Below, piece after piece: positions 1,001 through 38,363 of a stretch of 64,000 nt of DNA. The stretch's first letter is position 1, and every line of letters starts with the position of its first letter. A program made the translations under genes and the position numbers. Location of the stretch: assembly GCA_036405455.1 (NCBI GenBank), contig DASWXO010000008.1:2731-66730 (forward strand). Direction: 5' to 3'. This DNA comes from Thermomonas sp. GTDB lineage: Bacteria; Pseudomonadota; Gammaproteobacteria; Xanthomonadales; Xanthomonadaceae. The notes below the pieces were generated by a model. The model saw only the letters and a program-made list of their open reading frames with translations, had not been told where the DNA came from and did not search any database.

Positions 1001-2121
1001 CGAACGTCCCCGCCGGCGGCAGGTGGCGCGTCGGCCTGGTGCCGCAGTTGCGCCACCAGCGTGAAGCGGTCCATGCGCGTACGCGGATCCTGCTGCAGGG
1101 CGCCACTCAACGCCGGCGCGCTCCACTGGGGGGCGCCCTCCAGCTTGCCGACCAGTGCCGCCGCCTGGTTGGACAGGCCGATGAGCGTCAGCTGGTCGCC
1201 ATCGATGGCCAGCTTCTCCAGGTAGGTTCCCTCGGGCAGCCGGCGCGCCAAGGCGTCGATCACTTCCACCGACGGCGCACGGCCGTTGCGCTGGGCACGC
1301 AGCCAGGCGCCGCCCTCGATGGCATCCAGCACGCGCTGGCGCTGGCCCGCGACGCGATGCGCCTGCGCCTCGCGGGCCGACATGGCGGCCTGCAGGCCGT
1401 CGGCGGCGGCACGCCGGTTCTCGAGCAACTGCGCCAGCCCCAGCAGCAGCGCGACCAGCGCGACGACGACCAAGGCGAGGTTCCAGCCACGCCAGCGATC
1501 AGGCCCCACCCGCCGGTCCGCGGGCGGCAGCAGGTTGACGCCCAACGGCATGCCGGCCTCGTCGAGCATGTCGACGCCCGCCAGCATCCCGCCCGCCGCG
1601 CCCAGCGGCGCGAGCAGCGCGTCGAGCCGCCGGCGCGGCAACACCACCAGCTCGACGAGCAGCTGGCCATCCTCGCGGACCTGCAGGAGCCGGCCGTCAT
1701 GCAGGACATCCGCCTGCACGAACGGCGTCTGTCGCTCGATCTCGAACGCCAGCACGTCGCGCAACCGCTCCCGGGCAGCAGCCGGCAGCACCAGGCGCCG
1801 GCGCAGCCCGGCGCCGGCGGGCAACCGCAGCCAGCGTGCCCAGTCCCGTGCATCCTCGCGCAGCAGGCGGGCCAAGGGGTCCGGATCGGCGGGAAGCGGC
1901 ACCGGCAGCTCCGCCAGTGGCGACACGTCGTCGCCATGCTGGCGCCAGAGCCGGAGGACATCGCCATCGAGCTGCAACAGCAGGCGATGGTCATCGCACA
2001 GTGCGTGGCGCATCCGCGCGGGCAGCCAGGCCGCCAGACTCCTGCCCCACCAGGCGAGGAAGCCACGCAGCCCTGCCCCGGAGTTTGCCCAGAGGGCACG
2101 ATGGATGGACGTCGCGCTCAC
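997..2121 (-). CDS. xpsL: Type II secretion protein L (PilN-like C-terminus)
   Basis: FLAWW...LRDVLAFEIERQTPF motif and one TM; GTG start overlaps the xpsK stop. Confidence 0.85.
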   Translation of the reverse strand: MSATSIHRALWANSGAGLRGFLAWWGRSLAAWLPARMRHALCDDHRLLLQLDGDVLRLWRQHGDDVSPLAELPVPLPADPDPLARLLREDARDWARWLRLPAGAGLRRRLVLPAAARERLRDVLAFEIERQTPFVQADVLHDGRLLQVREDGQLLVELVVLPRRRLDALLAPLGAAGGMLAGVDMLDEAGMPLGVNLLPPADRRVGPDRWRGWNLALVVVALVALLLGLAQLLENRRAAADGLQAAMSAREAQAHRVAGQRQRVLDAIEGGAWLRAQRNGRAPSVEVIDALARRLPEGTYLEKLAIDGDQLTLIGLSNQAAALVGKLEGAPQWSAPALSGALQQDPRTRMDRFTLVAQLRHQADAPPAAGGDVR

Positions 2122-2945
2122 GGCGCACTCCCGCCACGCCGCGCATCCAGCGTTGTGTAAGTCGAACCGGGCAAACCATCTCCCCCCAAGCGGATCACCA
2201 CCGACCATCGCGCGCTGCGCCCGTCGGCGGGCCGGGCACGGCTCTCGATACTATACGTGCCGCTGCCGGCCACCGGCGATGCCGCGGCATCGGCCGCCGC
2301 CTCCGCGGGCGGCAGGCCCATCGCGCGGCGCAGCAGGGGATCGGCGGACGCGGCCTCCGGCATCGCGCGGCCGCTGTACACGGTCAGGTGCGGGGCCGCC
2401 GCCGCGAACAGCGCGGGCCGCATGCCCAGCACCTCCGCCAGCTCGGCGACACGCTCGAACGGCGCGTCCTTGGCGCCCCCCTGCAGGCCGGCGGCGGCGT
2501 AGTCGGCATCCTCGGCACCACCGGCGGGCTGGACCAGGCTGTCGGCATCGCGCCAGTCGACGACGGCGCCAGCCAACCGCGCCGCCGCCTCGTCGGGCTC
2601 GCCCAGCGCGACGAAAAACGCCTGCAACAGGCCGAACGGCGCGCCGTTGAGATCAAGCTTCGCCGCCTCGTCGCGGACTGCGACGTCGACCGGCACGCCA
2701 TCGAACACCCAGCGATACGTCCGCCCGTCCACCGCCCAGCGCCGCGCAGGGTCGGGGTCGAGCAGGCGCGAGGCGGCGTACTCGACGCCGGCGCGGGCCG
2801 CCTCGCCGGCCACCACGTCGCGCGCCAGGCCGTTGCCTTGCAGCGACGCGATGCGCGCAGACAGCGCATAGCCGGCCACCAGTCCGCTGAGCAGCAGGAC
2901 CAGCCACAGCACCAGCAGCAGCGCCGCGCCGCGGGCGGCCCTCAT
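2118..2945 (-). CDS. xpsK: Type II secretion minor pseudopilin K
   Basis: RGAALLLVLWLV prepilin-like N-terminus; DEAAKLDLN and VVDWRDAD motifs. Confidence 0.88.
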   Translation of the reverse strand: MRAARGAALLLVLWLVLLLSGLVAGYALSARIASLQGNGLARDVVAGEAARAGVEYAASRLLDPDPARRWAVDGRTYRWVFDGVPVDVAVRDEAAKLDLNGAPFGLLQAFFVALGEPDEAAARLAGAVVDWRDADSLVQPAGGAEDADYAAAGLQGGAKDAPFERVAELAEVLGMRPALFAAAAPHLTVYSGRAMPEAASADPLLRRAMGLPPAEAAADAAASPVAGSGTYSIESRARPADGRSARWSVVIRLGGDGLPGSTYTTLDARRGGSAP

Positions 2946-3583
2946 CGCCCCGCTCCGCCGGCGCGCACCAGTGCCACCACCAGGTCCGGCCACGGACCCT
3001 GCCCGTCGCGGATGCGCACGCGCACCTGCGGCGGCAGCGCGTCGGGCGTGTCCCAGGTGTCCTGCCATGGCCCCGGGCGGCCATCGGCCGCCAGCGTGCG
3101 ATAAGCGAAGCGGACCTCCACGAGTCCCGTCACCAGCGGCTCCGGGGACCGCGTGGCCGGCAACGCCTGTCCCGCGCGCAGTTGGCGAAACGCGACATCG
3201 AGCCGCCGCGCCGGCCCAGCACGGACCTGCAATTCGTGCAGGCGGGGGCCCCCGCGATCGAAGTAGGCAGGCACGTCGGATACGAAACGCATGGCCTGCG
3301 CGTCGCCCGCGAAGCGCAGCGACCGGCCACTGCCGGCATCGAAGCCGAACACGAGGCCGTCGGCGCCGCCGATCCGTTCGCGCAGGAATGCCGACACCGC
3401 GCGGATGCGCTCGTTGCGCTCCGCCATTGCCTCGCCGCGCGCCACGGTGGCACCCGCCGCGCGCAGGATGCCGAACGCCAGCGCCAGCGCTGCCGCCAGC
3501 AGCGACGTGGCCAGCAGGACCTCCATCAAGGTGAAGCCGGCCGCCACGCGTGGGCGCCGCACGCGCTCCCCGCGCCGGCTCAC
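2942..3583 (-). CDS. xpsJ: Type II secretion pseudopilin J
   Basis: GFTLMEVLLA N-methylation motif; GTG start overlaps the xpsI stop. Confidence 0.85.
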   Translation of the reverse strand: MSRRGERVRRPRVAAGFTLMEVLLATSLLAAALALAFGILRAAGATVARGEAMAERNERIRAVSAFLRERIGGADGLVFGFDAGSGRSLRFAGDAQAMRFVSDVPAYFDRGGPRLHELQVRAGPARRLDVAFRQLRAGQALPATRSPEPLVTGLVEVRFAYRTLAADGRPGPWQDTWDTPDALPPQVRVRIRDGQGPWPDLVVALVRAGGAGR

Positions 3584-4023
3584 GGGCCCCCTCCCGCCGG
3601 CAGCGGGCGCACCAGCCGCAGCGACGCCAGCCGCAGGCGCTGTTGCGGACTGCCCTCGCCCCACACCACATCCAGCCGGACGTGCAACAGGCGCGCGGCG
3701 AACGGATCCTCCGGCGCCTGGGTCGCCCGCGGCTGCGGGTCGCGCCACGGCGCCACCTCCAGCTGCCAGCGATAGCGTCCCTCCTCGAACGTTCCCGACA
3801 GCCGCCCGGGCCGCAGCAGCGCATCGCTGCGCTCGACCAGCAGCGACTGCGCATGCAGCGCCGCCTGCCCGGCATCGCCGGCCTGTCGCAGCTGCCGGCT
3901 GGCGCCGGACAGCGTGCCCAGCAGCAGGGTCAGGCCCAGCGCGAGCACGCCGAACGCGACCATGATTTCGATCAGGGTGAACCCATGCTGCGGACGCGCA
4001 AGGACGCGGCGTGGGACACTCAT
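3580..4023 (-). CDS. xpsI: Type II secretion pseudopilin I
   Basis: GFTLIEIMVAFGVLALGLTLLLGTLSG motif. Confidence 0.88.
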   Translation of the reverse strand: MSVPRRVLARPQHGFTLIEIMVAFGVLALGLTLLLGTLSGASRQLRQAGDAGQAALHAQSLLVERSDALLRPGRLSGTFEEGRYRWQLEVAPWRDPQPRATQAPEDPFAARLLHVRLDVVWGEGSPQQRLRLASLRLVRPLPAGGGP

Positions 4024-4478
4024 CGCCCATCCCCGATCCGGCGCAGCCGCACCTCGCCGGTCAGCCACGCCACGTCGACGTCCCAGCCGCCGCCATTGGC
4101 GGCCAGGCGCACCCGGCCGCCGGTCGCGGCGCCATCGGGGAAGAAGCGCACCGCGCCCTCGCCGGCCGTCGGCCCGAGTCCACGCGCACCGGTGAAGACC
4201 AGTTCGCCCGTGTCCGGCAGGCGGCCGTGGCGGCCGTTCGGCGCGCGCCAGGCGCGCGCGCGCGGATCGATCACGAAGTCCTGCGGGGCTCCGGTGGAAA
4301 TCGCCACCGCCCGGGTGAAGCGCAGCTGCGCGGCGACCTCCTTCGCCGCCGCCTGCAACCGCGCACCGCGCAGGCCATCGCCGAATGCGGCCATGGCGAG
4401 GACACTGGCGGCGGCGATGAGCGCCAGCACCACCAGCATCTCCAGCAGGGTGAACCCTGCCGTTGCCCGACCGCGCAT
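4020..4478 (-). CDS. xpsH: Type II secretion pseudopilin H
   Basis: GFTLLEMLVV; IRFFPDG-like VRFFPDGAATGGRV; VDVAWLTGEV. Confidence 0.9.
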   Translation of the reverse strand: MRGRATAGFTLLEMLVVLALIAAASVLAMAAFGDGLRGARLQAAAKEVAAQLRFTRAVAISTGAPQDFVIDPRARAWRAPNGRHGRLPDTGELVFTGARGLGPTAGEGAVRFFPDGAATGGRVRLAANGGGWDVDVAWLTGEVRLRRIGDGR

Positions 4479-4502
4479 GTGCCTGTCCCAACCCGTCGCG
4501 TG

Positions 4503-4934
4503 TTATTCGAAGCGCAGGTCGGCGTCCACGCTGTCGCCGCCGGGCTGGCCATCGGCCCCCAAGCTGAGCAGGTCGAACGCACGGCCCTCGCCCGGCACCT
4601 TGTACTGCACCGGATGCATCCACGGGTCCTTGAGGTCCGCCTGCTTCGCGTACGGGCCCAGCCAGCCGGCCACGCCCGACGGCGCCGCCACCAGTGCATC
4701 CAGGCTGGCGGGCAGCGCGCCGGTGTCCATCTGGTACTGCTGGACCTTCTCCGCCAGTGTCTGCAGCTGCGCCTGCGCCAGCTTGACCTTGGCGCGGTCG
4801 CCGCCGCCCAGGATGCGCGATGCCGCGAAGGCGACGATGCCGCCGATCAGCACCACCACCACGATGATCTCGATCAGCGAGAAACCGCGCTGCGCGGCCT
4901 TCGGGATCGGACGGAAATTGCGACGTTCACGCAT
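4503..4934 (-). CDS. xpsG: Type II secretion major pseudopilin G
   Basis: GFSLIEIIVVVVLIG; WLGPY...DLKDPW; LLSLGADGQPGG. Confidence 0.95.
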   Translation of the reverse strand: MRERRNFRPIPKAAQRGFSLIEIIVVVVLIGGIVAFAASRILGGGDRAKVKLAQAQLQTLAEKVQQYQMDTGALPASLDALVAAPSGVAGWLGPYAKQADLKDPWMHPVQYKVPGEGRAFDLLSLGADGQPGGDSVDADLRFE

Positions 4935-4989
4935 GGCATAGCCCCGGCTTGGATGGGATTTCGATTTCGGGATGGCACAGTGCCAGCGC

Positions 4990-6207
4990 TCATCCCACCA
5001 CGTTGGTCAGATCGTAGATCGGCGCCAGCACCGACAGGATCACCACGCCGACGACCGCCGCCAGCACCAGCGTCACCACCGGCACCAGCGCGGCCAACAG
5101 GCGGTCCATCGCCGCCTGCGTCTCCTGGTCGAAAGTGTCCGCGGTCTTCAGCAGCATGGCGTCGAGCGCGCCCGACTCCTCGCCAACCTGGATCATCTGC
5201 AGCGCCAGCCGCGGGAACCGCTTGCCGCGGGCCAGCGCGGAGGACAGACCGATGCCGTTCTTGACCTCCTCGGCGGCGGCGGCGACGTCGTCGGCCAGCA
5301 CGCGGTTGTCCAGCACGTTGCGGGCGATGCCCAGCGCCGCCAGCAGCGGCACGCCGTTGCGCAGCAGGGTCCCCAGCGTGCGCGCCAGCCGCGCGGTGTC
5401 GAGCTTGGCCACCAGCGACCCGGCGAGCTTGCGCTGCAGCAGCCAGCCATCGAAGCGGCGCATCACCGCGGGATCGCGGCGCAGGCGCTCCAGCCACAGC
5501 AGCGCGAGCAACGGCACCGCGAGGATCACGATCCACCAGTCGCGGACGAACACGCCGGTGCCCAGCACCAGCCGGGAGAACCAGGGTAGCTCCGCGTCCA
5601 GGCTTTCGTACATGCCGGCGAATTGCGGCACCACGTACCCCAGCAGGAACAGCAGCGACAGCCCCACCATCACCAGCAGGATCGCCGGGTACACCAGCGC
5701 GTTGACCACCCGCGTGCGCAGCGCGCGCGAACGCTCCAGGTAGTCGGCCAGCCGCTGCAGCGTCTCGTGCAGGCTGCCGCCCGCCTCGCCGGCGCGGACC
5801 ATGTTCACGTACAGCCGGCCGAACGCGCCGTGCTGGCGTTCCAGCGCGGCCGACAGCGAGGCACCGCCGCGCACCGCCTCGCGGATGTCGCCCACGATGC
5901 GCTTGGCCGCCTCGTCCTCCGGCAGCTCCAGCAGGATCCCCAGCGCGCGATCCAGCGGCTGTCCCGCCGCCAGCAGCGTGGCCAGCTGCTGGGTGAACTG
6001 CACCAGGCGCGCGCCGGCGAACGGGGCCGGCTTGAACAGCGCGCGCCACGGGGCGGCGCCGCCCGCGTCGGACGCAGGCCTGGCCTCCACCGGCAGCTGG
6101 CCCTGCGCCTGCAGGCGCGCGGCCACGTCGGCTTCGCTGGCCGCTTCCATCTGCCCGTCCACCAGCGTGCCGCGGGCGTCCAGCGCCTTGTAGCGATACA
6201 GCGCCAT
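4990..6207 (-). CDS. xpsF: Type II secretion inner membrane protein F
   Basis: MALYRYKALD start; two GspF repeats (RAGEAGGSL, QVGEESGALD) and three TMs. Confidence 0.95.
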   Translation of the reverse strand: MALYRYKALDARGTLVDGQMEAASEADVAARLQAQGQLPVEARPASDAGGAAPWRALFKPAPFAGARLVQFTQQLATLLAAGQPLDRALGILLELPEDEAAKRIVGDIREAVRGGASLSAALERQHGAFGRLYVNMVRAGEAGGSLHETLQRLADYLERSRALRTRVVNALVYPAILLVMVGLSLLFLLGYVVPQFAGMYESLDAELPWFSRLVLGTGVFVRDWWIVILAVPLLALLWLERLRRDPAVMRRFDGWLLQRKLAGSLVAKLDTARLARTLGTLLRNGVPLLAALGIARNVLDNRVLADDVAAAAEEVKNGIGLSSALARGKRFPRLALQMIQVGEESGALDAMLLKTADTFDQETQAAMDRLLAALVPVVTLVLAAVVGVVILSVLAPIYDLTNVVG

Positions 6208-6211
6208 CGGC

Positions 6212-7933
<1,722 letters not shown>

Positions 7934-30117: not shown

Positions 30118-32118
30118 TCAACTCCAGCGGCCTCCTTCAATCGCTCCCAAACGATCGCGGCTCAAAGATGCTGCCGCCTCCAACGCATCGAAGTAGCGCT
30201 CAAGATTGTCCAAGGAACGTTGCATGTTGTCGTTCCAGGCCTCGTTCTTGACGTCGGTGGCTTCGTCCGCGTCGAACGCGCGGTAAGGCTCGGAGGGGAC
30301 ATCGACCGCGTCGAATCCGAAAGCGCGCAGCGGCCGATTCGCGGAATGGATGAAGTCGCTGGACAGCGACGCATAGGCCCGCACCTTTGCGACCAACGCA
30401 TCGTGGCTGGAATTGGCCATCTTTCGCCCGAGCGAGATCCCGGCCCTCATCAAGAATCCTTCGTCGCCGAAGCTCGCCCACGACATCGCTACTTCCTGGA
30501 ACTGTTTGAGCATGGCCGACCGAATGTCCATGCACATCCGGAAGTCTTCCCTCCAGCCTTTGTCGATGCCGAGGAGCGCCCCGGTGAGCGATACTTTCCG
30601 GAAATCGATGATCGTCGACCATTCCTTCGTTTCGGAATGAATCAAGCAGACGATCTCCGCGATCTCCTCGGGCGACTCCGAAGTCGCCAAGGTGACTGCA
30701 TTCTGGAGCAACGCCTCGGCCTTCTGATTCTTCATGTCGAACAACTGGCACATCTGCAGGATCCGCTCGCGCGACTTCGGATCGATCGCTCCGTCGCGGG
30801 TCGCGAGGAAGGCAGCGTCGACGACCCAGGCGACCTGGCGCTTTTGATCGGCCAGGGCGGAAAGAACAGCCGCCATGTCCACGAGGACCGGGGGGCGGAT
30901 CCTTTCGCAACGCTGCTCGCTGGCATCGACGTCTAGAACACGCGCGAGCGATGCGAGGAAACTCCGCTGCGCGGCGTTGGCTTCACCGTCGATCGCGACA
31001 GCAACGAGGGCGTCCACAAAGGACTGTCGTTCGGGTACGGGGACGTCGAGCGCCAGCAGGGCGTGCGACTTCAGCGGCACATGCTGCGCCAGCAATTCGT
31101 CGATCGTAAGCGTGCGCGCAGCGGCAGTCTGCACCGCGGGGGCCTGCGGCACCGGATCCAGCGTGAGCAGGTCACGCACCAGCGTTATGCCGGCGACGAT
31201 TTCCTTGGCGAGGTTCGCCAGGTCATATTCGATCTCCGGCTCCTGCACTAAGGCGCCGGCGGCCTTCCTGCAGATCTCGGCGCGCAGATCGCTCGGTTCC
31301 GAGCGCGTGATCCGCATGGCGTGCGGAATCTCGTTGGTCAGATCCATGATGCAACCGAAAGCGCGCCCGGCAACGAGACCCGACACGCGCGCAGGGTCCA
31401 GCGAGCGCTCGCCGATGCCGATTCGGGTGATCTCGCCGAATCGTTCAACGCCCGTGGACAGGACGTCTTCCGCCAACTGCGTGGCAAACTCCCCCAGCGT
31501 TATTCGCCTGCCCGGCGACATCCCCAGCCCGGTGAACGCGAGTTCCAGGTCATGGCTCTGTTCCAGCCGCTCCATGGCGTGGCCATGTTCGTCGAACTTA
31601 TCGGCGTACTCGAAGGCGGCCTTCACGACACGCAGGAGTTCGGGTAAGGCGAGGTAGTCTTCGCGCACCTTGATGCTGTCGCGCCAGTCGATGACGCGGA
31701 CATCCTGTGCAAGCCTGCCGACCTTTCGCGTCTGCTCGAGCACCAGCCCGCCCAGGCGATGTTGCGTGTGGGCCAAGTGCGCGAGGTTGTTCCGGACCAC
31801 TGCGATGGCACGCGCCGTAAACAGCCCCTGCTTCTGCATGCCGGCCAGGCACTGCCACGCCATGAGCTGGACTTCGACAAGGTCTGCGACCGTCGCCCGC
31901 TCCAACGATGCGGTCTTGCCGCTGAACCTGTACCAAAGGCGCAGGAAAAAGCCGGCGCCGCGGAACTGCTCCAGCCTGTCCTCTGACAGCCCCGCGAGGC
32001 GCGACGCATCGGTCGCGAGTTGATCGGCAGCGGCTTGGCTCAGCTCGCCTTCGGCAAGGAGATCAACGACGCGAGGATCGAGCGCTTCGACGTCGGCAAG
32101 GAGTGCGTTGGATTCCAT
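30118..32118 (-). CDS. Hypothetical 666-aa protein with two TerB-like repeats in the C-terminal half
   Basis: FVDALVAVAIDGEANAAQRSFLASLARVL and WVVDAAFLATRDGAIDPKSRERILQMCQLF resemble TerB helical repeats; starts 3 bp after the upstream stop. Confidence 0.7.
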   Translation of the reverse strand: MESNALLADVEALDPRVVDLLAEGELSQAAADQLATDASRLAGLSEDRLEQFRGAGFFLRLWYRFSGKTASLERATVADLVEVQLMAWQCLAGMQKQGLFTARAIAVVRNNLAHLAHTQHRLGGLVLEQTRKVGRLAQDVRVIDWRDSIKVREDYLALPELLRVVKAAFEYADKFDEHGHAMERLEQSHDLELAFTGLGMSPGRRITLGEFATQLAEDVLSTGVERFGEITRIGIGERSLDPARVSGLVAGRAFGCIMDLTNEIPHAMRITRSEPSDLRAEICRKAAGALVQEPEIEYDLANLAKEIVAGITLVRDLLTLDPVPQAPAVQTAAARTLTIDELLAQHVPLKSHALLALDVPVPERQSFVDALVAVAIDGEANAAQRSFLASLARVLDVDASEQRCERIRPPVLVDMAAVLSALADQKRQVAWVVDAAFLATRDGAIDPKSRERILQMCQLFDMKNQKAEALLQNAVTLATSESPEEIAEIVCLIHSETKEWSTIIDFRKVSLTGALLGIDKGWREDFRMCMDIRSAMLKQFQEVAMSWASFGDEGFLMRAGISLGRKMANSSHDALVAKVRAYASLSSDFIHSANRPLRAFGFDAVDVPSEPYRAFDADEATDVKNEAWNDNMQRSLDNLERYFDALEAAASLSRDRLGAIEGGRWS

Positions 32119-32121
32119 GAT

Positions 32122-33534
32122 TCAGATCTTTTCGATGGCGAGTTGAAGTGCGTCCAGCTGAGTCTCGATGCCTTCCATTTGTGCGGAAAACTGCCGCTCG
32201 GATTGGGCGACGCCGACGCGAAATGACACGAACGCCCGCTCCGACATTGCGATCAGCGCGGTGGACTCGACCAGTACATGGTGCGATCGCACGAGTCCTT
32301 CGGCTGTCGCGACCGTTTCGAGGTAGGGCGCTTCGATGTGGTTGTCGATGGCGATCGTCGTGGCGAGCGACACGATCAATGCCCCGACGACACTCCCGAC
32401 ATAGACGCCGACCGGCCCAGCTGGCGCGCCGATCGCGCCCCCGATAGCGGAACCTACGACAGCGCTGGCGCTCTGCAGCAGGTTCTTGCCGGTCCGTGTT
32501 TCCAGCTCGTCCATCGTCATGCGGCCGGCCGCAACGAGGACAAGACACTCGGCCAGGTCCACTGCGCTGATGGCAAGGCCCGCCACGCCACCCGAAACCA
32601 GTGCGGTCTGGAACGCGCTGCCTGCAAACAACTGCGGCAGCGTGCGCGCGGCGATGCTAACCGTCGCTGTCGCGGCGCCAGCCTTGAGCGCGGCGTCCCC
32701 AGCCGCGATGGCCGTGTTCCACAGGATGTATTTCGTTGCGTCGATTTCGCTCAGCTTTCCATCCCGGACCAGCTTGAGGCACTGCACGGTATTGACGGTT
32801 CCTGCCACGACCGTCGCGATCATCGCAGCCGATTTGGCGGCATGCCACGACTGCTTCGCAGTGGAAGCGTCGAGATAGCGGCCCTCTGTCTTGCGTCGAA
32901 GAGCTTCACCTTCTTCCTTGCCGGCCCCCAGCGCCTTGGCGTCTTCCAGGGGCAGCTCCGCAGACTGGACGCCGTCACGCTCGAGGTGTCCCGTCACCTT
33001 CTGTTCCACCTCGCGCGCGGCGTCCGCAACGTGGGGCCGTTTCCCCGCGTTCTCGATCTGCGTCTTGCGCGCGGCCTGTCGGACGGATTCCACCTGGTCC
33101 GAGGGAACGACATGCTGTTCGGTTTCGTGGTATTTCGGGATGCCGTCGCGTGTTTCCCGCAATGCCTTCTGCGTGTCTTCCGCCGTGCGGTAGTACTTGA
33201 GTTGCGCACGCGTATCGGGCGACTTTCCATCGCGCAGGAGAATGTCGGTGGTCGAGTCGATGCTGGAGAGCGTCGATCCCGGATGCTGGGCGGTGTAAGC
33301 CCGCACCCGCTTGTCTTTCAGGATCGCTTCGAGATTGAACGTCTCGGCGTGGTGCACCTCGGCTGCGAATCCGGCCTTGTGGGGCAAGCCTTGCCCGGTG
33401 CTAGCGATCCGTTGGAATTGCGTGTTGGCGAGCCGAATCTCGTCGACCATTCGGCCCACCTCCGCTGACGCACGCTCCCCCCAGATATGACACACGTCCA
33501 CCGCGCGATAGCGCTTCGCCCCATTCTGCTTCAT
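32122..33534 (-). CDS. Hypothetical 470-aa protein: putative PD-(D/E)xK-like N-terminus plus glycine-zipper hydrophobic region and coiled-coil tail
   Basis: AAEVHH...TDILL...AQLKYY motif; GSAIGGAIGAPAGPVGVYVGSVVG; start MKQNG chosen from the GGGGA RBS. Confidence 0.7.
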   Translation of the reverse strand: MKQNGAKRYRAVDVCHIWGERASAEVGRMVDEIRLANTQFQRIASTGQGLPHKAGFAAEVHHAETFNLEAILKDKRVRAYTAQHPGSTLSSIDSTTDILLRDGKSPDTRAQLKYYRTAEDTQKALRETRDGIPKYHETEQHVVPSDQVESVRQAARKTQIENAGKRPHVADAAREVEQKVTGHLERDGVQSAELPLEDAKALGAGKEEGEALRRKTEGRYLDASTAKQSWHAAKSAAMIATVVAGTVNTVQCLKLVRDGKLSEIDATKYILWNTAIAAGDAALKAGAATATVSIAARTLPQLFAGSAFQTALVSGGVAGLAISAVDLAECLVLVAAGRMTMDELETRTGKNLLQSASAVVGSAIGGAIGAPAGPVGVYVGSVVGALIVSLATTIAIDNHIEAPYLETVATAEGLVRSHHVLVESTALIAMSERAFVSFRVGVAQSERQFSAQMEGIETQLDALQLAIEKI

Positions 33535-33935
33535 CGACTTCCCCTGTTCCCGGCAAAACAACTGCACATTCAAGCGCTCGCCCGCGGGCCGCGGAGATTG
33601 CGAATCGCCTCCTGCGTCATCGCGATTACAACCCACAAACCAATAAATGCGAAAATGTCCTTCATCATGTTGCTCTCCGAACCCGCTTAGGAACGGCGAA
33701 TATCGTCGAAGGCCATCTCACTACGCGAGACGACGACCCTGGTCACACCGGACGTCCGACCCGATCTGTCCAATCCGAACTCCGTGAAGGGCGCTTTCAC
33801 CATAGGAAAGACCCTCACGGGTCGGCGGCCGACTGGATGACTTGGATTTCGTTGACGTAGCACCGATCCTACGGGAAAGTTTATCCAGCGTGGAGCAGAA
33901 TGTCCGTTTTGGGTCGATACCCGCCTTCCAAGGCA

Positions 33936-34301
33936 CTAATTCAGTTGATCATCAAGATATCTTCGTACAGCAGCCAGTCCATCGATGCCCTCCTCTTCCA
34001 TCAAGTCGATCGCGGATCGTCCAGCAAACAGCGGCGCACTATTGGGGCGCATGATCCAACCGTCGGCTTGAAGTTCATTGGGGAAGATCGTGTGCAGCGC
34101 TTTATAGATACCAAGAACGTAGCTGATGCGAATGAGTACATCGTGCGATACGCCGGAACATTCGCCTTGGCGCCAAGAGTCGAGAGTACGGCGATCTTCG
34201 CAGCCCAATAGCGAGCCCTGTTGTTCGGGCGACATTTGCCACTTCTCAGAAATGCGAAAAAAGGTCCGGAGGCCAGAACCCGCCAACTCTTGCTCGCTCA
34301 T
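33936..34301 (-). CDS. Xre/MbcA/ParS-family antitoxin (DUF2384)
   Basis: GLRTFFRISEKW...RISYVLGIYKALHTIF...WIMRPNSAPLFAGRSAIDLM...VRRYLD matches the canonical family signature. Confidence 0.88.
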   Translation of the reverse strand: MSEQELAGSGLRTFFRISEKWQMSPEQQGSLLGCEDRRTLDSWRQGECSGVSHDVLIRISYVLGIYKALHTIFPNELQADGWIMRPNSAPLFAGRSAIDLMEEEGIDGLAAVRRYLDDQLN

Positions 34302-34356
34302 AGAAATGCTCCCAATGCACGCACTCCCTGCACTATCTGCTCAAGAAGAGCCAAGA

Positions 34357-34635
34357 CTAGGCCGAAAACCCATGAGCAGCTTTTTGAACGGCAGTCAGGA
34401 TATCCGCGGCACGTCCTTCCGCTACAGCCCTCGCGGGAGAGCTCTGCAATCCTCTCAAGTCGGAGCACACCCATCGAGCTGCCGACTCTGAACTCGAAAA
34501 TAGATCCAGAATGTGCCGTGCAAGTTCCGGCTCCGCTTGCACCAGCGCAGTCCAAACAGCTTGGCGGCACGCATGGAGCTCACCGGCCTTGGCTTCTTCG
34601 GCAGCGACTGCCTTCAACAGCTCGTCATGCTGCAT
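34357..34635 (-). CDS. Small DUF2384-like (MbcA/ParS toxin-binding domain) protein
   Basis: LFSSSESAARWVCSDLRGLQSSPARAVAEG...AAHG pattern; GGAG RBS before MQHDELL. Confidence 0.65.
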   Translation of the reverse strand: MQHDELLKAVAAEEAKAGELHACRQAVWTALVQAEPELARHILDLFSSSESAARWVCSDLRGLQSSPARAVAEGRAADILTAVQKAAHGFSA

Positions 34636-34796
34636 ACGGATCTCCCTGGCTCCCGACGCCTTGGGCATCGAAGCGCAAGATGCCTGTTCTAGGTAATTTT
34701 TTTTCCACACGCTCTCGGCAGCCCATCGCAACATTCCGTGTCTTGACCACCGGACAATCACACCGATGATGCCTCTGTCCGCATCCAGAGCTCCCC

Positions 34797-35171
34797 TCAC
34801 CCATACTGTCCCGACGAAATCGTCTGCAGGTAACGTAGAGTTCTCTCCGCTTCGCCATCGCGTACCGTGTCGAACAGCATCCGATGATCCAGTGGGCTGA
34901 TCCGCGTTACCGTCATTCGGACGGCCGCCAGTCCTGCGTCTGACTGCACCGCCAACAGGCTTTCGAACACGCCAACGAATGGCCGAAGCTACTGCTGGAT
35001 CGATCCATCATCTGGGCATTGCTGCAGGCTGTCGATATCCAAGCGAAGCGCCTCCGCCAGCTCCGGCTCGGAGACCCCAAGTGCCTGTGCAAAGCGCGCG
35101 TGCGACTGGGCATCGCACCCCTCATCCTTGAACACGCTTTCCGATGCTTGATCCTGATGCGTCATTTGCAC
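34797..35171 (-). pseudogene. Xre-HTH + DUF2384 antitoxin-like gene with an in-frame TAG (34989-34991)
   Basis: Reading through the TAG gives ...ARFAQALGVSEPELAEALRL...IQQ*LRPF...LFDTVRDGEAERTLRYLQTISSGQYG, 125 codons in one frame. Confidence 0.65.
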
Positions 35172-35268: not shown

Positions 35269-35640
35269 CTACGACAGGTTGCAGTGCATGATCGCGAAGC
35301 AGTAGTTGGTTCCCGGCGGGCAACTCGCAATGAGTTCCAGCGCTGCTTGTGGGATCCAGCGGGTAATGCTCCGCGTGGTCGCGCTGGACATATCTCCGAT
35401 GACGTCCAGCGCCACATGCTCCTTACAGTACTCAGGAACGTTTTTTTTGAAGGCATTCTTTGCGTGCTCCTCCGTTCCGCTGACAGCAACAAAGAGGGTT
35501 TCCCCTTCGCCCGTTGCGCCAAACGCGTAATAGGCGATGTGGCACTCAACTGGACGGTCGCCCTGCTCGAGGTCTTGCCCGAATGCCCCCTCCTGCGCCG
35601 CTAAGCCCGCCCCACCCTGCGCTCGAATATGTGCCTGCAT
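35269..35640 (-). CDS. Hypothetical protein (123 aa)
   Basis: GAGGAG RBS before MQAHIRA; co-oriented with neighbours. Confidence 0.6.
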   Translation of the reverse strand: MQAHIRAQGGAGLAAQEGAFGQDLEQGDRPVECHIAYYAFGATGEGETLFVAVSGTEEHAKNAFKKNVPEYCKEHVALDVIGDMSSATTRSITRWIPQAALELIASCPPGTNYCFAIMHCNLS

Positions 35641-35644
35641 TGCG

Positions 35645-35950
35645 CTACTCCTCGTACGCCAAATAGATCCTTTGCGACAACAGGCCCATGCTTCTGGCAT
35701 AGGTCACAGCCGCCTGCTCAGACGGGAACCACAGTGGTCGAGGGGCATTCCATCCGTCTGGACGGATGAGATTGGGCGCAGGCAGGGGCTCATCCCGCAG
35801 CACCCTGGTGAATCCTCGCCCTCGGACCACAAGTACCCACGAGGACGCTCTGCCATTGAACACCTGAACGGGCTCGATGACCCTGACCAGCCTGAACAGT
35901 CGGGCGATCTGGAGGGGAAACAGGGAGATCAATCCGTATCGCATCGGCAC
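35645..35950 (-). CDS. Hypothetical protein (~101 aa)
   Basis: Open frame ending 4 bp before the next start; start uncertain. Confidence 0.45.
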   Translation of the reverse strand: MPMRYGLISLFPLQIARLFRLVRVIEPVQVFNGRASSWVLVVRGRGFTRVLRDEPLPAPNLIRPDGWNAPRPLWFPSEQAAVTYARSMGLLSQRIYLAYEE

Positions 35951-36158: not shown

Positions 36159-37028
36159 CTATCTGCGAAAGGTCAACACGTTGTCGCCATTGGGCTTAGA
36201 CGGCGACCACGGTCGATGGGGATGGCGGCCGTGCAAGCGCAGGTCATTCTCTGCGCTGGCCTGGTCGTACGCCCGAACCAGACTTCCAACCGCCATCAGC
36301 GGCTTGCCCCCATGGCGCTTCCACTGGCCGGACAACAGCGATCGCATCGCAACCGCCCCATCAGGCCAGTCACACCCCAGACGTTCCAGCGCGCCATGCA
36401 GCCGCGCGAGCCCCACCAGCTCATGGCCCAAGGCATACAGGTGAGCACCCCCCTCCGCGTAGCACCACAGCTTGCCCACGTCATGGGTGAGAGCGTGAGC
36501 GATCCCCACATCTCGTTCCATGCCTGTCAATCGCGGCGTGTCCCGAACGTTCTCTGCCATCTCGATTGAATGCACCGCCAAACCACCGGCATACGCATGG
36601 TGATGCGCCTTCGAGGCCTGGCACTGCCAGAAGTTTCGGTACACAGCCGGCATGGAAAACACGTTGCTGAGAAAGCGCCTCAGCGGCTCGGATTCACAGG
36701 CATCCACCACATCGCGACAGCGGAACACGATGTCGTCGCGCTCGCCGAACTGGTCCGGAATCAGGTTGAACACATCCAGCTCCGGCCTCGGCTGGATGCG
36801 GGTCACCACATGCGTTTCGCCCTCCGAGGTTTCCAGCGGCATCGCGCAAACCTCGGCCTTCAGTACCCGCTCGGTATCCTGGGCCATCGTCGGCAGCCAG
36901 GACCAAGCATCCATCTGACCGGCTTCCTGCAGGATCCTGAGGTGGCTTGCCCCCGAGTCGTAGGTGTGGACCTGCTCGACAATGGCGTTGATCAGGATCG
37001 TGCGGACATAGGGAATCTCGACTTCCAT
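36159..37028 (-). CDS. HD-domain phosphohydrolase (YhaM / TraI_2-MobH-like)
   Basis: HHHAYAGGLAVHSIEMAE and ALTHDVGK motifs; AAGGAG RBS. Confidence 0.82.
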   Translation of the reverse strand: MEVEIPYVRTILINAIVEQVHTYDSGASHLRILQEAGQMDAWSWLPTMAQDTERVLKAEVCAMPLETSEGETHVVTRIQPRPELDVFNLIPDQFGERDDIVFRCRDVVDACESEPLRRFLSNVFSMPAVYRNFWQCQASKAHHHAYAGGLAVHSIEMAENVRDTPRLTGMERDVGIAHALTHDVGKLWCYAEGGAHLYALGHELVGLARLHGALERLGCDWPDGAVAMRSLLSGQWKRHGGKPLMAVGSLVRAYDQASAENDLRLHGRHPHRPWSPSKPNGDNVLTFRR

Positions 37029-37043
37029 TTCGTACTCCTTGGT

Positions 37044-38363
37044 TTAGGCAACCTTCGAGGCGAGCAACTGATTCAGGGCACTGCGGAGCTGTTCAGCGGA
37101 CATCCCCGACAGCTGTTCGGGCGTGATCGACTGGAGCTCGGCAGGCGCCTTCTGTCCGTGGGCGCTGAGCAGCCCGGCGATCGCCAGCCCATCCTGACGC
37201 GCGAGGTTGGGGACGAAGCGCGAGTACACCGTGAACAACATCTGCGTATTGCTGTGCCCCATGAGTCGGGCGATCCACTCCGGACTCTCGCCCGAAGCCA
37301 ACATCAGCGTCGCCGTGGTGTGCCGCGTCTGGTAGGGACGACGCTTCTCCAATTCCAGAAAGCGCAGCAGCGGATACCAGATCCGGTTGGCGAAGTTGTG
37401 CGCATCGATCGGATTGCCTTCCCGGCTGCAGAACACGTATTCCACATCCGGATCCCGCTTCTCCCACTGCCGCTCCAACGCCTCCCTGACCATCGGCAGC
37501 ATCGGGATGTCCCGGATCGAGCTTTCGGTCTTGGCGTTCTCTTCGGACTCGCCTGCCGAGAACACCTCCCGGATCCGGATAACCCCTTGTTCGAAGTCGA
37601 CGTACTTCCACTTCAGTCCGTTGATTTCGCCGGTGCGCATGCCGGTGAAGAACCGACAGGTAACGTAGTTCCGAAAGTCCGGGCGAATGGTGTTGCGAAC
37701 CCTCTCCACCTCCGCCAGCGAGAACGGCTTGACGTCGGAGCGCCTCCCCTTCAGCCGTTTCACCCCCTTGAAGATGTCCGGCATCCCGAAGCGTTCGCTG
37801 GCTTCCGTCATGCACTGCCGCAGCAGACCCATCGTGCGGTTGACGGTCGTAGGCGACAGCTTGGCACTGGAGCGACCAGGAAGATCAGCCAACCTGGCGC
37901 GGAAGCTCAGCACATCGGCCTTGGTGATCGAATCGACCCGCCGGTTCCCGAACTCCGCCAACAGATGCGCGTCGAACGTCGCGTCCACGCTTTCACGATG
38001 CTGGCGCCGCCACTGCGGTGCCATTTCTTTGCGCCAAGTCACAGAAAAGTCTGAGAACGTCGGAGTACCGAGGTGGCTCTGGACGGTTGGCTCAAGGACT
38101 CCACCCTTCACAACGGGATACGCGCCGCTAGTGGGGCTCGGCAGATCCGCGAACTGCGCGGCTCTAGGGCTGCCCGGAAACGTAGCGCCGTAATCGAACT
38201 GCCCCTGCTTGATCTCCTTGGAGACTCTGTTCATCAGCGACTGGACACGCCGTCGATTCTCCGCCGTATCTGGCAGGGCCGTCTGCTCTCTGCAGCGGAC
38301 TCCCCGATAGTAGAAATCCAAAAACAGCAGGCCGTTGTCCTTGCGGGCGCGGACCTTAGCCAT
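37044..38363 (-). CDS. int: Tyrosine integrase with N-terminal arm-DNA-binding (DUF3596-like) domain
   Basis: MAKVRARKDNGLLFLDFYYRGVRCRE; TGMRTGE, AKT, YQTRHT, MGHSNTQMLFTVY (full R-K-x-R-H-Y set). Confidence 0.92.
   Translation of the reverse strand: MAKVRARKDNGLLFLDFYYRGVRCREQTALPDTAENRRRVQSLMNRVSKEIKQGQFDYGATFPGSPRAAQFADLPSPTSGAYPVVKGGVLEPTVQSHLGTPTFSDFSVTWRKEMAPQWRRQHRESVDATFDAHLLAEFGNRRVDSITKADVLSFRARLADLPGRSSAKLSPTTVNRTMGLLRQCMTEASERFGMPDIFKGVKRLKGRRSDVKPFSLAEVERVRNTIRPDFRNYVTCRFFTGMRTGEINGLKWKYVDFEQGVIRIREVFSAGESEENAKTESSIRDIPMLPMVREALERQWEKRDPDVEYVFCSREGNPIDAHNFANRIWYPLLRFLELEKRRPYQTRHTTATLMLASGESPEWIARLMGHSNTQMLFTVYSRFVPNLARQDGLAIAGLLSAHGQKAPAELQSITPEQLSGMSAEQLRSALNQLLASKVA

What the first reader, a model, noticed from the sequence alone, without database searches (positions are those of the whole stretch)
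33936..35171. Array of three Xre/MbcA/ParS (DUF2384)-type antitoxins with no RES toxin
Seen: three consecutive co-oriented DUF2384-like genes of different subtypes (34797-35171, 34357-34635, 33936-34301), with no RES-domain ORF in the ~400 bp downstream or elsewhere in the window. Established: these antitoxins normally precede an NAD+-degrading or ADP-ribosylating RES toxin (MbcTA, ParST, Xre-RES). Inference: an orphan antitoxin bank that could neutralise RES toxins of competing elements or phages (anti-addiction), or the genes are repurposed regulators.
Basis: partly seen in the sequence, partly recalled or inferred. Interest (0 to 1): 0.62.

Follow-up and report, generated by a model that had tools for sequence, protein, structure and literature searches.

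The report
Toxin-less RES-antitoxin genes in island backbone
Three small neighbouring genes really are relatives of the antitoxins that normally block NAD-destroying RES toxins, but no toxin gene accompanies them; one is broken here, and the set is a conserved fixture of a family of mobile defence islands, most likely disarming RES toxins met elsewhere or regulating the island.

Summary
The observation largely holds. Three co-oriented minus-strand genes all have the RES-antitoxin (Xre/MbcA/ParS, DUF2384) fold:
- g1, 34797-35165
- g2, 34357-34635
- g3, 33936-34301

Only g3 passes Pfam directly. g2 is supported through its family profile. g1 is supported by its predicted structure (best PDB match MbcA) and by distant plasmid homologues that sit in front of RES genes.

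No RES gene or RES remnant was found in the array, the window or the 94%-complete MAG. This is not local decay. The genes form a conserved but mosaic module (o101, then g1 and/or g2, then g3) directly after xis-int-HD. It recurs in islands whose cargo differs.

The island g3 clade is well supported, and all five members I examined lack RES. g2 and g3 are under purifying selection. g1 and g2 are never both intact: I saw four separate losses. The working unit therefore looks like "g1 or g2, plus g3", not a bank of three.

RES-less DUF2384 genes are common in this bacterial family (26 of 71). Function is inferred only. I favour trans-neutralisation of RES NADases (counter-defence or anti-addiction). 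Island regulation is a serious rival.

The parts
34797..35165 (-). g1: MbcA-like RES-antitoxin homologue of 122 codons, a pseudogene in this window (in-frame TAG at 34989-34991, plus substitutions at otherwise near-invariant H83 and T96)
34989..34991 (-). Premature TAG in g1; the nearest relatives have CAG here and more distant ones CGG
34357..34635 (-). g2: intact 92-aa protein with a long N-terminal helix, a C-terminal DUF2384-type domain and no HTH
33936..34301 (-). g3: intact 121-aa protein with an Xre-like HTH and a DUF2384 domain; member of a RES-less clade carried on islands
33810..33823 (-). Weak terminator-like hairpin about 110 nt after g3; possibly the end of the backbone transcript
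   Evidence: consensus match only; the number of such sites is not above chance
35645..35950 (-). o101: conserved small gene of unknown function, the first gene of the module in the related int-HD islands where the region could be examined
35269..35640 (-). o143 (123 aa from ATG 35640): optional cassette of unknown function; present intact only here and in L020, and as a truncated remnant in L083
36159..37028 (-). HD-domain protein with a MobH/TraI_2-like motif; conserved backbone gene upstream of the module
37044..38363 (-). Tyrosine integrase of the island (the end coordinate marks the likely start codon, inferred from homologues)

Best explanation
The three genes descend from the three architectural types of RES-toxin antitoxin: g1 is MbcA-like, g2 is an HTH-less mini-DUF2384, and g3 is Xre-HTH plus DUF2384. 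All three lineages have lost the toxin.

They form a conserved but mosaic accessory module (o101, optionally o143, g1 and/or g2, then g3). It lies on the same strand directly after xis-int-HD in a family of integrase-bearing, probably mobilisable, genomic islands with exchangeable defence cargo. The window's island sits at tRNA-Met.

In this window g1 is dead, while g2 and g3 are intact and under purifying selection. Across relatives the working unit is 'g1 or g2, plus g3'.

Inferred mechanism: the proteins are made from the island's backbone transcript. Their DUF2384 domains bind and plug the active site of RES-domain NAD+ phosphorylases encoded elsewhere. Candidate targets are Xre-RES modules of the host or of rival elements, and stand-alone aRES-type defence proteins. 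This would protect the island, or the helper element that moves it, from NAD+ depletion or post-segregational killing. g3 may also bind DNA through its HTH.

Shown here: identity, absence of RES, conservation and selection. Inferred only: binding in trans and its biological purpose.
For: Identity:
- g3 passes Pfam.
- g2 is supported at family level: 12 of 49 members pass PF09722 and hhalign gives 84% probability.
- g1 is supported by structure: the top 11 PDB hits are all RES antitoxins. Its distant homologues also overlap RES genes.

No RES:
- None in the MAG and no remnant in the array.
- None in any of the related loci examined.
- g3 homologues at 52-54% identity do have an adjacent RES gene.

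Backbone status:
- The same module follows int-HD in islands with different cargo: DUF2026, IS elements, McrBC, a Phage_DNA_bind-like gene, and Dionysus-like genes here.
- It is kept in an island whose HD protein is only 30% identical (L046).

Selection: dN/dS is 0.09-0.25 for g3 and about 0.3 for g2.

The island g3 clade has 100/99 support, and 5 of 5 examined members lack RES.

Cassette-like presence and absence fits an accessory arsenal.

Possible targets exist: RES genes are common in this bacterial family, and 29 of 75 have no upstream DUF2384 gene.

Precedents:
- aRES defence and phage aRad1 proteins that plug the RES active site (bioRxiv 10.64898/2026.01.28.702374).
- Orphan antitoxins are highly represented in plasmid leading regions (PMC11541004).
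- Phage orphan antitoxin-like enzymes neutralise DarTG1 (PMC11825919).
Against: - No binding or neutralisation was tested.
- The present host has no RES gene to neutralise.
- g1 and g2 are never both intact. That pattern suits two alternatives for a single role better than a bank of distinct specificities.
- g3 keeps a full HTH and recurs beside recombinase modules of several kinds, which fits a regulator.
- The conserved W, P and G residues of the domain may be structural rather than toxin-contacting.
- g1 has H in place of the hallmark W.
- No oriT or transfer polarity is known, so the 'entry module' idea is unanchored.
Confidence: 0.42

Rival explanations
1. Repurposed island regulators. 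g3 would be an HTH repressor or integrase regulator of the backbone. g1 or g2 would act as its modulating partner through DUF2384-mediated contacts. RES toxins would play no part.
For: - g3 keeps the Xre-like HTH above the Pfam cut-off.
- RES-less g3 relatives lie beside different recombinase modules: int-HD, a three-recombinase module (L063), a DUF6538 protein (L055) and a P4-type integrase (L069).
- g1 and g2 are mutually exclusive, as expected for alternative occupants of one partner slot.
- The g1-like and g3-like genes overlap by ATGA in L065.
- Pfam DUF2384 was used as an excisionase marker in ICE annotation (PMC8138268).
Against: - A separate xis-like gene and a divergently transcribed Xre gene already flank int.
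- g2 has no DNA-binding domain.
- The module is dispensable in parts: L020 lacks both g1 and g2, and L016 lacks g3.
- The most conserved parts of g1 and g2 are their toxin-binding-type domains.
- No operator or binding site has been identified.
Confidence: 0.3
2. Acquired immunity against injected RES-domain effectors (polymorphic toxins delivered by T6SS, CDI or Rhs systems of neighbouring bacteria). This would be analogous to orphan immunity-gene arrays beside recombinases.
For: - RES domains occur in polymorphic toxins (Zhang et al. 2012, PMC3482391).
- The array sits in a horizontally acquired defence island next to an integrase.
Against: - The immunity family reported for Tox-RES polymorphic toxins is Imm51; DUF2384 is listed for TA systems.
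- There are no Rhs, CDI or T6SS remnants nearby.
- The g1/g2 exclusivity is not predicted by this model.
Confidence: 0.1
3. Antitoxins for a non-RES toxin encoded in cis, for example o101, o143, the HD protein or the downstream cargo.
For: - o101 always accompanies the module in int-HD islands, and its function is unknown.
- The genes are tightly linked on one strand.
Against: - Cargo differs between islands while g3 stays.
- o143 is optional.
- g3-clade genes also occur without HD or o101 (L063, L065).
- No toxin-like domain was found in o101 or o143 with Pfam, NCBIfam, PADLOC or PHROGs.
Confidence: 0.08
4. Functionless remnants of three decayed Xre-RES loci.
For: - g1 is a pseudogene here and in the nearest relatives.
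- g1 dN/dS is 0.66-0.69 against close intact copies.
Against: - No RES remnants.
- g2 and g3 are intact and under purifying selection.
- The module is conserved across deeply diverged islands and in a well-supported RES-less clade.
Confidence: 0.05

Closest known systems
Type II RES-Xre toxin-antitoxin systems: P. putida Xre-RES (6GW6, 9R35), M. tuberculosis MbcTA (6FKG), P. aeruginosa NatRT (8QNL), V. parahaemolyticus VPA0770/0769 (8GUG), ParST
   Same: - Antitoxin fold and domains.
- g3 is 52-54% identical to antitoxins with an adjacent RES gene.
- The g1 model superposes on MbcA, NatR, VPA0769 and Xre.
- The g2 C-terminal domain matches PF09722 at family level.
   Different: - No RES toxin next to the genes, in the genome, or in any related island.
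- The genes sit in an island backbone after xis-int-HD, not in a two-gene addiction cassette.
- Several antitoxin types stand in tandem.
Orphan antitoxins and toxin-blocking proteins of mobile elements: orphan antitoxins in plasmid leading regions (Samuel et al. 2024, PMC11541004), phage orphan antitoxin-like enzymes against DarTG1 (PMC11825919), phage aRad1 inhibitors of aRES (bioRxiv 10.64898/2026.01.28.702374)
   Same: - Toxin-less, antitoxin-like small genes carried by a mobile element.
- RES NADases are now a demonstrated defence that small proteins can block by binding the active site.
   Different: - The carrier here is an integrative island, not a plasmid or phage.
- No oriT or leading-region polarity is known.
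- Activity is untested.
Orphan immunity-gene arrays beside recombinases (acquired interbacterial defence clusters of Bacteroidales; cited from memory, not checked here)
   Same: Tandem toxin-less protective genes next to a tyrosine recombinase on a mobile element.
   Different: Those arrays hold immunity genes for secreted effectors and are long and highly variable. Here there are only two or three genes, and g1 and g2 exclude each other.

Membership tests
Xre/MbcA/ParS antitoxin superfamily (PF09722 +/- PF20432) | C-terminal DUF2384 toxin-binding domain detectable by HMM: g3 | tested here: met
   PF09722 at 38.1 bits against a cut-off of 24.5
Xre/MbcA/ParS antitoxin superfamily (PF09722 +/- PF20432) | C-terminal DUF2384 domain: g2 | tested here: met
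   The window copy scores only 12.7 bits. However, 12 of 49 family members pass PF09722 and hhalign to the g3 family gives 84% probability, E 7.5e-6. The model's C-terminal 51 residues superpose on NatR and VPA0769 at 1.6-1.7 A, though with weak Foldseek E-values of 5-9.
Xre/MbcA/ParS antitoxin superfamily (PF09722 +/- PF20432) | C-terminal DUF2384 domain: g1 | tested here: met
   There is no Pfam hit for the window copy or close homologues. Membership rests on other evidence: the profile's best specific PDB match is MbcA at E 0.13-0.15; the top 11 Foldseek hits are all RES antitoxins; one g1-family member passes PF09722 at 37.3 bits; and plasmid homologues are annotated antitoxins overlapping RES genes. 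The hallmark W is replaced by H.
Xre/MbcA/ParS antitoxin superfamily (PF09722 +/- PF20432) | N-terminal Xre-like HTH | tested here: inconclusive
   g3 meets it (27.9 bits, cut-off 25.8). g2 does not: it has one long helix instead. g1 has three short helices in the model and only a weak HTH_26 hit in the L065 homologue.
Type II RES-Xre toxin-antitoxin system | RES-domain toxin gene adjacent (normally immediately downstream, often overlapping) | tested here: not met
   No PF08808 match in the MAG and no remnant by tblastn. None was found in any related locus examined. The search method does find RES next to 45 of 71 DUF2384 genes in the same bacterial family.
Type II RES-Xre toxin-antitoxin system | Antitoxin neutralises the toxin and autoregulates the operon | not testable with these tools
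   Needs co-expression, pull-down and promoter assays.
Mobile-element orphan antitoxin / anti-RES counter-defence | Toxin-less antitoxin homologue conserved on a mobile element | tested here: met
   The module follows xis-int-HD in many related islands with different cargo. It is under purifying selection.
Mobile-element orphan antitoxin / anti-RES counter-defence | Neutralises a toxin encoded elsewhere (in trans) | not testable with these tools
   No assay was possible.
Excisionase / recombination directionality factor or integrase regulator | Small DNA-binding protein functionally tied to the adjacent recombinase | tested here: inconclusive
   Adjacency to recombinase modules recurs, and DUF2384 has been used as an excisionase marker (PMC8138268). 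However, a separate 78-80-aa xis-like gene already precedes int, and no function was tested.

The most novel reading that the evidence does not exclude
The pair '(g1 or g2) + g3' is a RES-independent switch built entirely from antitoxin-fold proteins. g3 would be an HTH repressor of island backbone, excision or transfer genes. The upstream DUF2384 protein would be its exchangeable anti-repressor or co-repressor. In that case a toxin-antitoxin antitoxin was exapted into a mobile-element control circuit, which would explain both why g1 and g2 exclude each other and why the pair tracks recombinase modules.
Probability: 0.15. Interest if true: 0.7.

Novelty: new variant of a known kind. Interest (0 to 1): 0.45.

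Why it matters
RES-domain NAD+ phosphorylases act as toxins in TA systems and, as recently shown, as stand-alone antiphage defence (aRES). If islands routinely carry toxin-less RES antitoxins as a backbone module, that would be a counter-defence or anti-addiction layer for integrative elements. Such a layer has so far been documented mainly for plasmids and phages.

The module is also a ready source of candidate RES inhibitors of three architectures.

About a third of DUF2384 genes in this bacterial family lack RES, so automatic annotation of such genes as 'antitoxin' is often misleading.

The mutual exclusivity of g1 and g2 is a concrete, testable clue to how the module works.

Tried and rejected
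- Pfam, NCBIfam, PADLOC and PHROGs on the window's g1 and g2, o101, o143 and the short ORFs downstream of g3 gave nothing useful.
- hhalign of the shallow g1 and g2 alignments was uninformative, both against each other and against the g3 family. Only the deeper g2 alignment worked.
- The RES remnant search was negative. A lone tblastn hit at window 1087-1422 (E 0.001) lies in core DNA and is not supported by the Pfam search, so I dismissed it.
- The genome-contig scan with the HD protein found only one locus, a Thermomonas MAG.
- g2 has no plasmid homologues, and its Foldseek search against viral structures was insignificant.
- Promoter and terminator scans were no better than chance.
- I recalled that ICEclc InrR might be a DUF2384 protein. 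The papers I read do not give its domain, so I dropped the idea.
- I rejected 'cargo-specific antitoxin', because the cargo changes while g3 stays.

Full report
**Setting**

The window's G+C content drops from about 72% to about 60% between roughly 22 and 39 kb. Earlier notes of this scan place a tRNA-Met-inserted defence island there. Its right part reads, on the minus strand:
- xis-int (to about 38.4 kb)
- an HD-domain protein with a MobH/TraI_2-like motif (36159-37028)
- small genes down to 33936
- a two-gene Dionysus-like cargo (30118-33636)

The finding concerns the last three small genes.

**Observation**

ORF listing and translation show three co-oriented genes, each with a plausible ribosome-binding site.

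g3 (33936-34301, 121 aa):
- It passes PF09722 (38.1 bits) and PF20432 (27.9 bits).

g2 (34357-34635, 92 aa):
- It has eight close homologues, all 92 aa.
- A full HMMER scan of 1.84 billion representative proteins finds only 74 clusters, mostly 89-92 aa.
- The window copy scores 12.7 bits on PF09722, but 12 of 49 aligned family members pass, best E 1.2e-11.
- The family profile aligns to the DUF2384 part of the g3 family at 84% probability, E 7.5e-6.
- Its AF2 model (pLDDT 90.7) is one long helix followed by a four-helix C-terminal domain. That domain superposes on NatR and VPA0769 at 1.6-1.7 A over about 51 residues. These are the top-ranked PDB hits, but their statistics are weak (E 5-9).

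g1:
- It starts at ATG 35165 and carries an in-frame TAG at 34989-34991.
- Six full-length homologues at 73-78% identity are intact 122-aa proteins.
- At the TAG position the nearest relatives have CAG and others have CGG.
- The window copy also replaces the near-invariant H83 and T96.
- dN/dS against close intact copies is 0.66-0.69. Together these mark g1 as a pseudogene here.
- It has no Pfam hit, but the family profile's best specific PDB match is MbcA (E 0.13-0.15).
- The 11 best Foldseek matches of the AF2 model (pLDDT 76) are all antitoxins of RES systems: MbcA (E 4e-3, TM 0.63/0.68), NatR, VPA0769 and P. putida Xre.
- One g1-family member passes PF09722 at 37.3 bits.
- Plasmid homologues at 30-33% identity overlap 'RES family NAD+ phosphorylase' genes by 4 bp.

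All three are therefore RES-antitoxin relatives, of three different architectures.

**No toxin**

- PF08808 finds nothing at E<=1 in the 2.46-Mb, 94%-complete MAG.
- The same search finds RES in 8 of 14 and in 45 of 53 related genomes.
- tblastn with a RES protein paired with a 52-53%-identical g3 homologue gives no hit in or after the array.

**This is not local decay**

Homologues of g1, g2 and g3 lie in the same place in many metagenomic and genomic contigs. The layout is a divergent xre gene, then xis-int-HD, sometimes KfrA_N, then o101, sometimes o143, then g1 and/or g2, then g3, then cargo that differs between elements. Cargo seen includes DUF2026, IS elements, McrBC and a Phage_DNA_bind-like gene.

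An island in another genus of the same family keeps o101-g1-g3 even though its HD protein is 30% and its integrase 46% identical (L046).

blastn shows that each small gene is a separate block, present or absent independently.

- dN/dS is 0.09-0.25 for g3, about 0.3 for g2 and 0.18-0.36 for o101.
- In a maximum-likelihood tree, the island-type g3 sequences form a clade with 100/99 support. All five members whose context I examined lack RES.
- The two homologues with an adjacent RES gene that I examined (52-54% identity; L054, L067) fall in the other part of the tree.
- The RES-less clade also lacks the N-terminal extension of about 13 residues.

**g1 and g2 exclude each other**

- Window: g1 has one stop and g2 is intact.
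- L083-L086 (nearest relatives, same three-gene array): g1 has two other stops and g2 is intact.
- L014 and L015: only a 66-aa N-terminal remnant resembling the P0010-type g1 N-terminus (by eye; blastp to the window's g1 was insignificant, E 1.1) survives, and g2 is intact.
- L016: g1 is intact, and g2 has a stop at its near-invariant tryptophan.
- Elsewhere one finds g1+g3 without g2 (L006-9, L046, L051-53, L065-66). In L065 the g1-like and g3-like genes overlap by ATGA.

These are four independent inactivations. They suggest that g1 and g2 do the same job, so the unit is 'g1 or g2, plus g3' rather than a bank of three specificities.

**Baseline**

In 151 genomes of the same bacterial family, 71 loci pass PF09722.
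- 45 have RES within 1 kb downstream on the same strand.
- 26 (37%) do not.
- 29 of 75 RES loci have no upstream DUF2384 gene.

RES-less DUF2384 genes are therefore common. Stand-alone RES genes, which are possible targets, are common too.

Another genome has two tandem RES-less DUF2384 genes just upstream of a P4-type integrase (L069). RES-less relatives of g3 also follow a three-recombinase module (L063) and a DUF6538 protein (L055). A g1-like gene follows TraD/DUF4400 in an ICE (L094).

**Interpretation**

Shown:
- The three genes have the RES-antitoxin fold.
- Their lineages lack RES.
- They are backbone genes of a mobile island family.
- g2 and g3 are functional genes.
- g1 is dead here.

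Inferred:
- Reading 1 (about 0.42): the proteins bind RES NADases encoded elsewhere. Several precedents support this. RES proteins are a demonstrated defence (aRES) that phage aRad1 proteins block at the active site. Orphan antitoxins are highly represented in plasmid leading regions. Phages use orphan antitoxin-like enzymes against DarTG1.
- Reading 2 (about 0.30): the proteins are island regulators. In its favour are g3's intact HTH, the recurring recombinase neighbourhood, the g1/g2 exclusivity, the translational coupling, and the use of DUF2384 as an excisionase marker.
- Lesser readings: immunity to injected RES effectors, a cis non-RES toxin, and plain decay.

**Limits**

- Nothing was assayed.
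- The g1/g2 pattern rests on about seven element types.
- Contexts were examined for a minority of homologues.
- The conserved domain residues may be structural rather than toxin-contacting.

Noticed in passing
window 35645-35950 (-): o101 is a 99-101-aa protein of unknown function. It follows the HD gene in the related int-HD islands where the region could be examined and is under purifying selection (dN/dS 0.18-0.36). It has no hit in Pfam, NCBIfam, PADLOC or PHROGs.
   Followed up: partly
window 35269-35640 (-); L020 7992-8420; L083 1420-1560: o143 is an optional cassette between o101 and g1. It is intact only in the window and in a Thermomonas MAG, and is a 46-aa remnant in the nearest relatives.
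   Followed up: partly
L006 3732-4388, L051 5044-5700: Related islands carry a KfrA_N gene between HD and o101. The window lacks it.
   Followed up: no
L069 (G914:C1) 4154-7893 (-): Two tandem RES-less DUF2384 genes lie directly upstream of a P4-type tyrosine integrase in another genome of the same family. This is an independent example of an integrase-linked orphan antitoxin array.
   Followed up: partly
L063/L064 98-6375: A 61%-identical RES-less g3 homologue follows a module of three recombinase-like genes (432, 520 and 728 aa) plus a 133-aa gene. This recalls the giant triple recombinase at the other end of the window's island.
   Followed up: no
L094 (G614:C192) 2688-6348: A g1-family gene sits just after a TraD/TraG coupling protein and a DUF4400 protein, so it lies inside a conjugative element.
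   Followed up: no
53 genomes of the same family: 29 of 75 RES-domain loci have no PF09722 gene upstream. Stand-alone (possibly aRES-like) RES genes appear frequent in this bacterial family.
   Followed up: no
L060 (G484:C217) 3495-5886: The only g2-like gene found in 400 genomes of the class lies after an MqsA-like antitoxin and a 171-aa gene. This recalls the MqsRA-SecB trio elsewhere in the window.
   Followed up: no
L065/L066: A g1-like/g3-like pair with overlapping stop and start codons lies next to a Gabija-like pair (OLD/TOPRIM ATPase plus UvrD helicase). No recognisable integrase is present in the stretch held.
   Followed up: no
window 1087-1422 (+): Weak tblastn similarity (E 0.001, 34% over 118 aa) to a RES protein in high-GC core DNA. 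The Pfam RES model does not support it, so it is probably compositional.
   Followed up: partly
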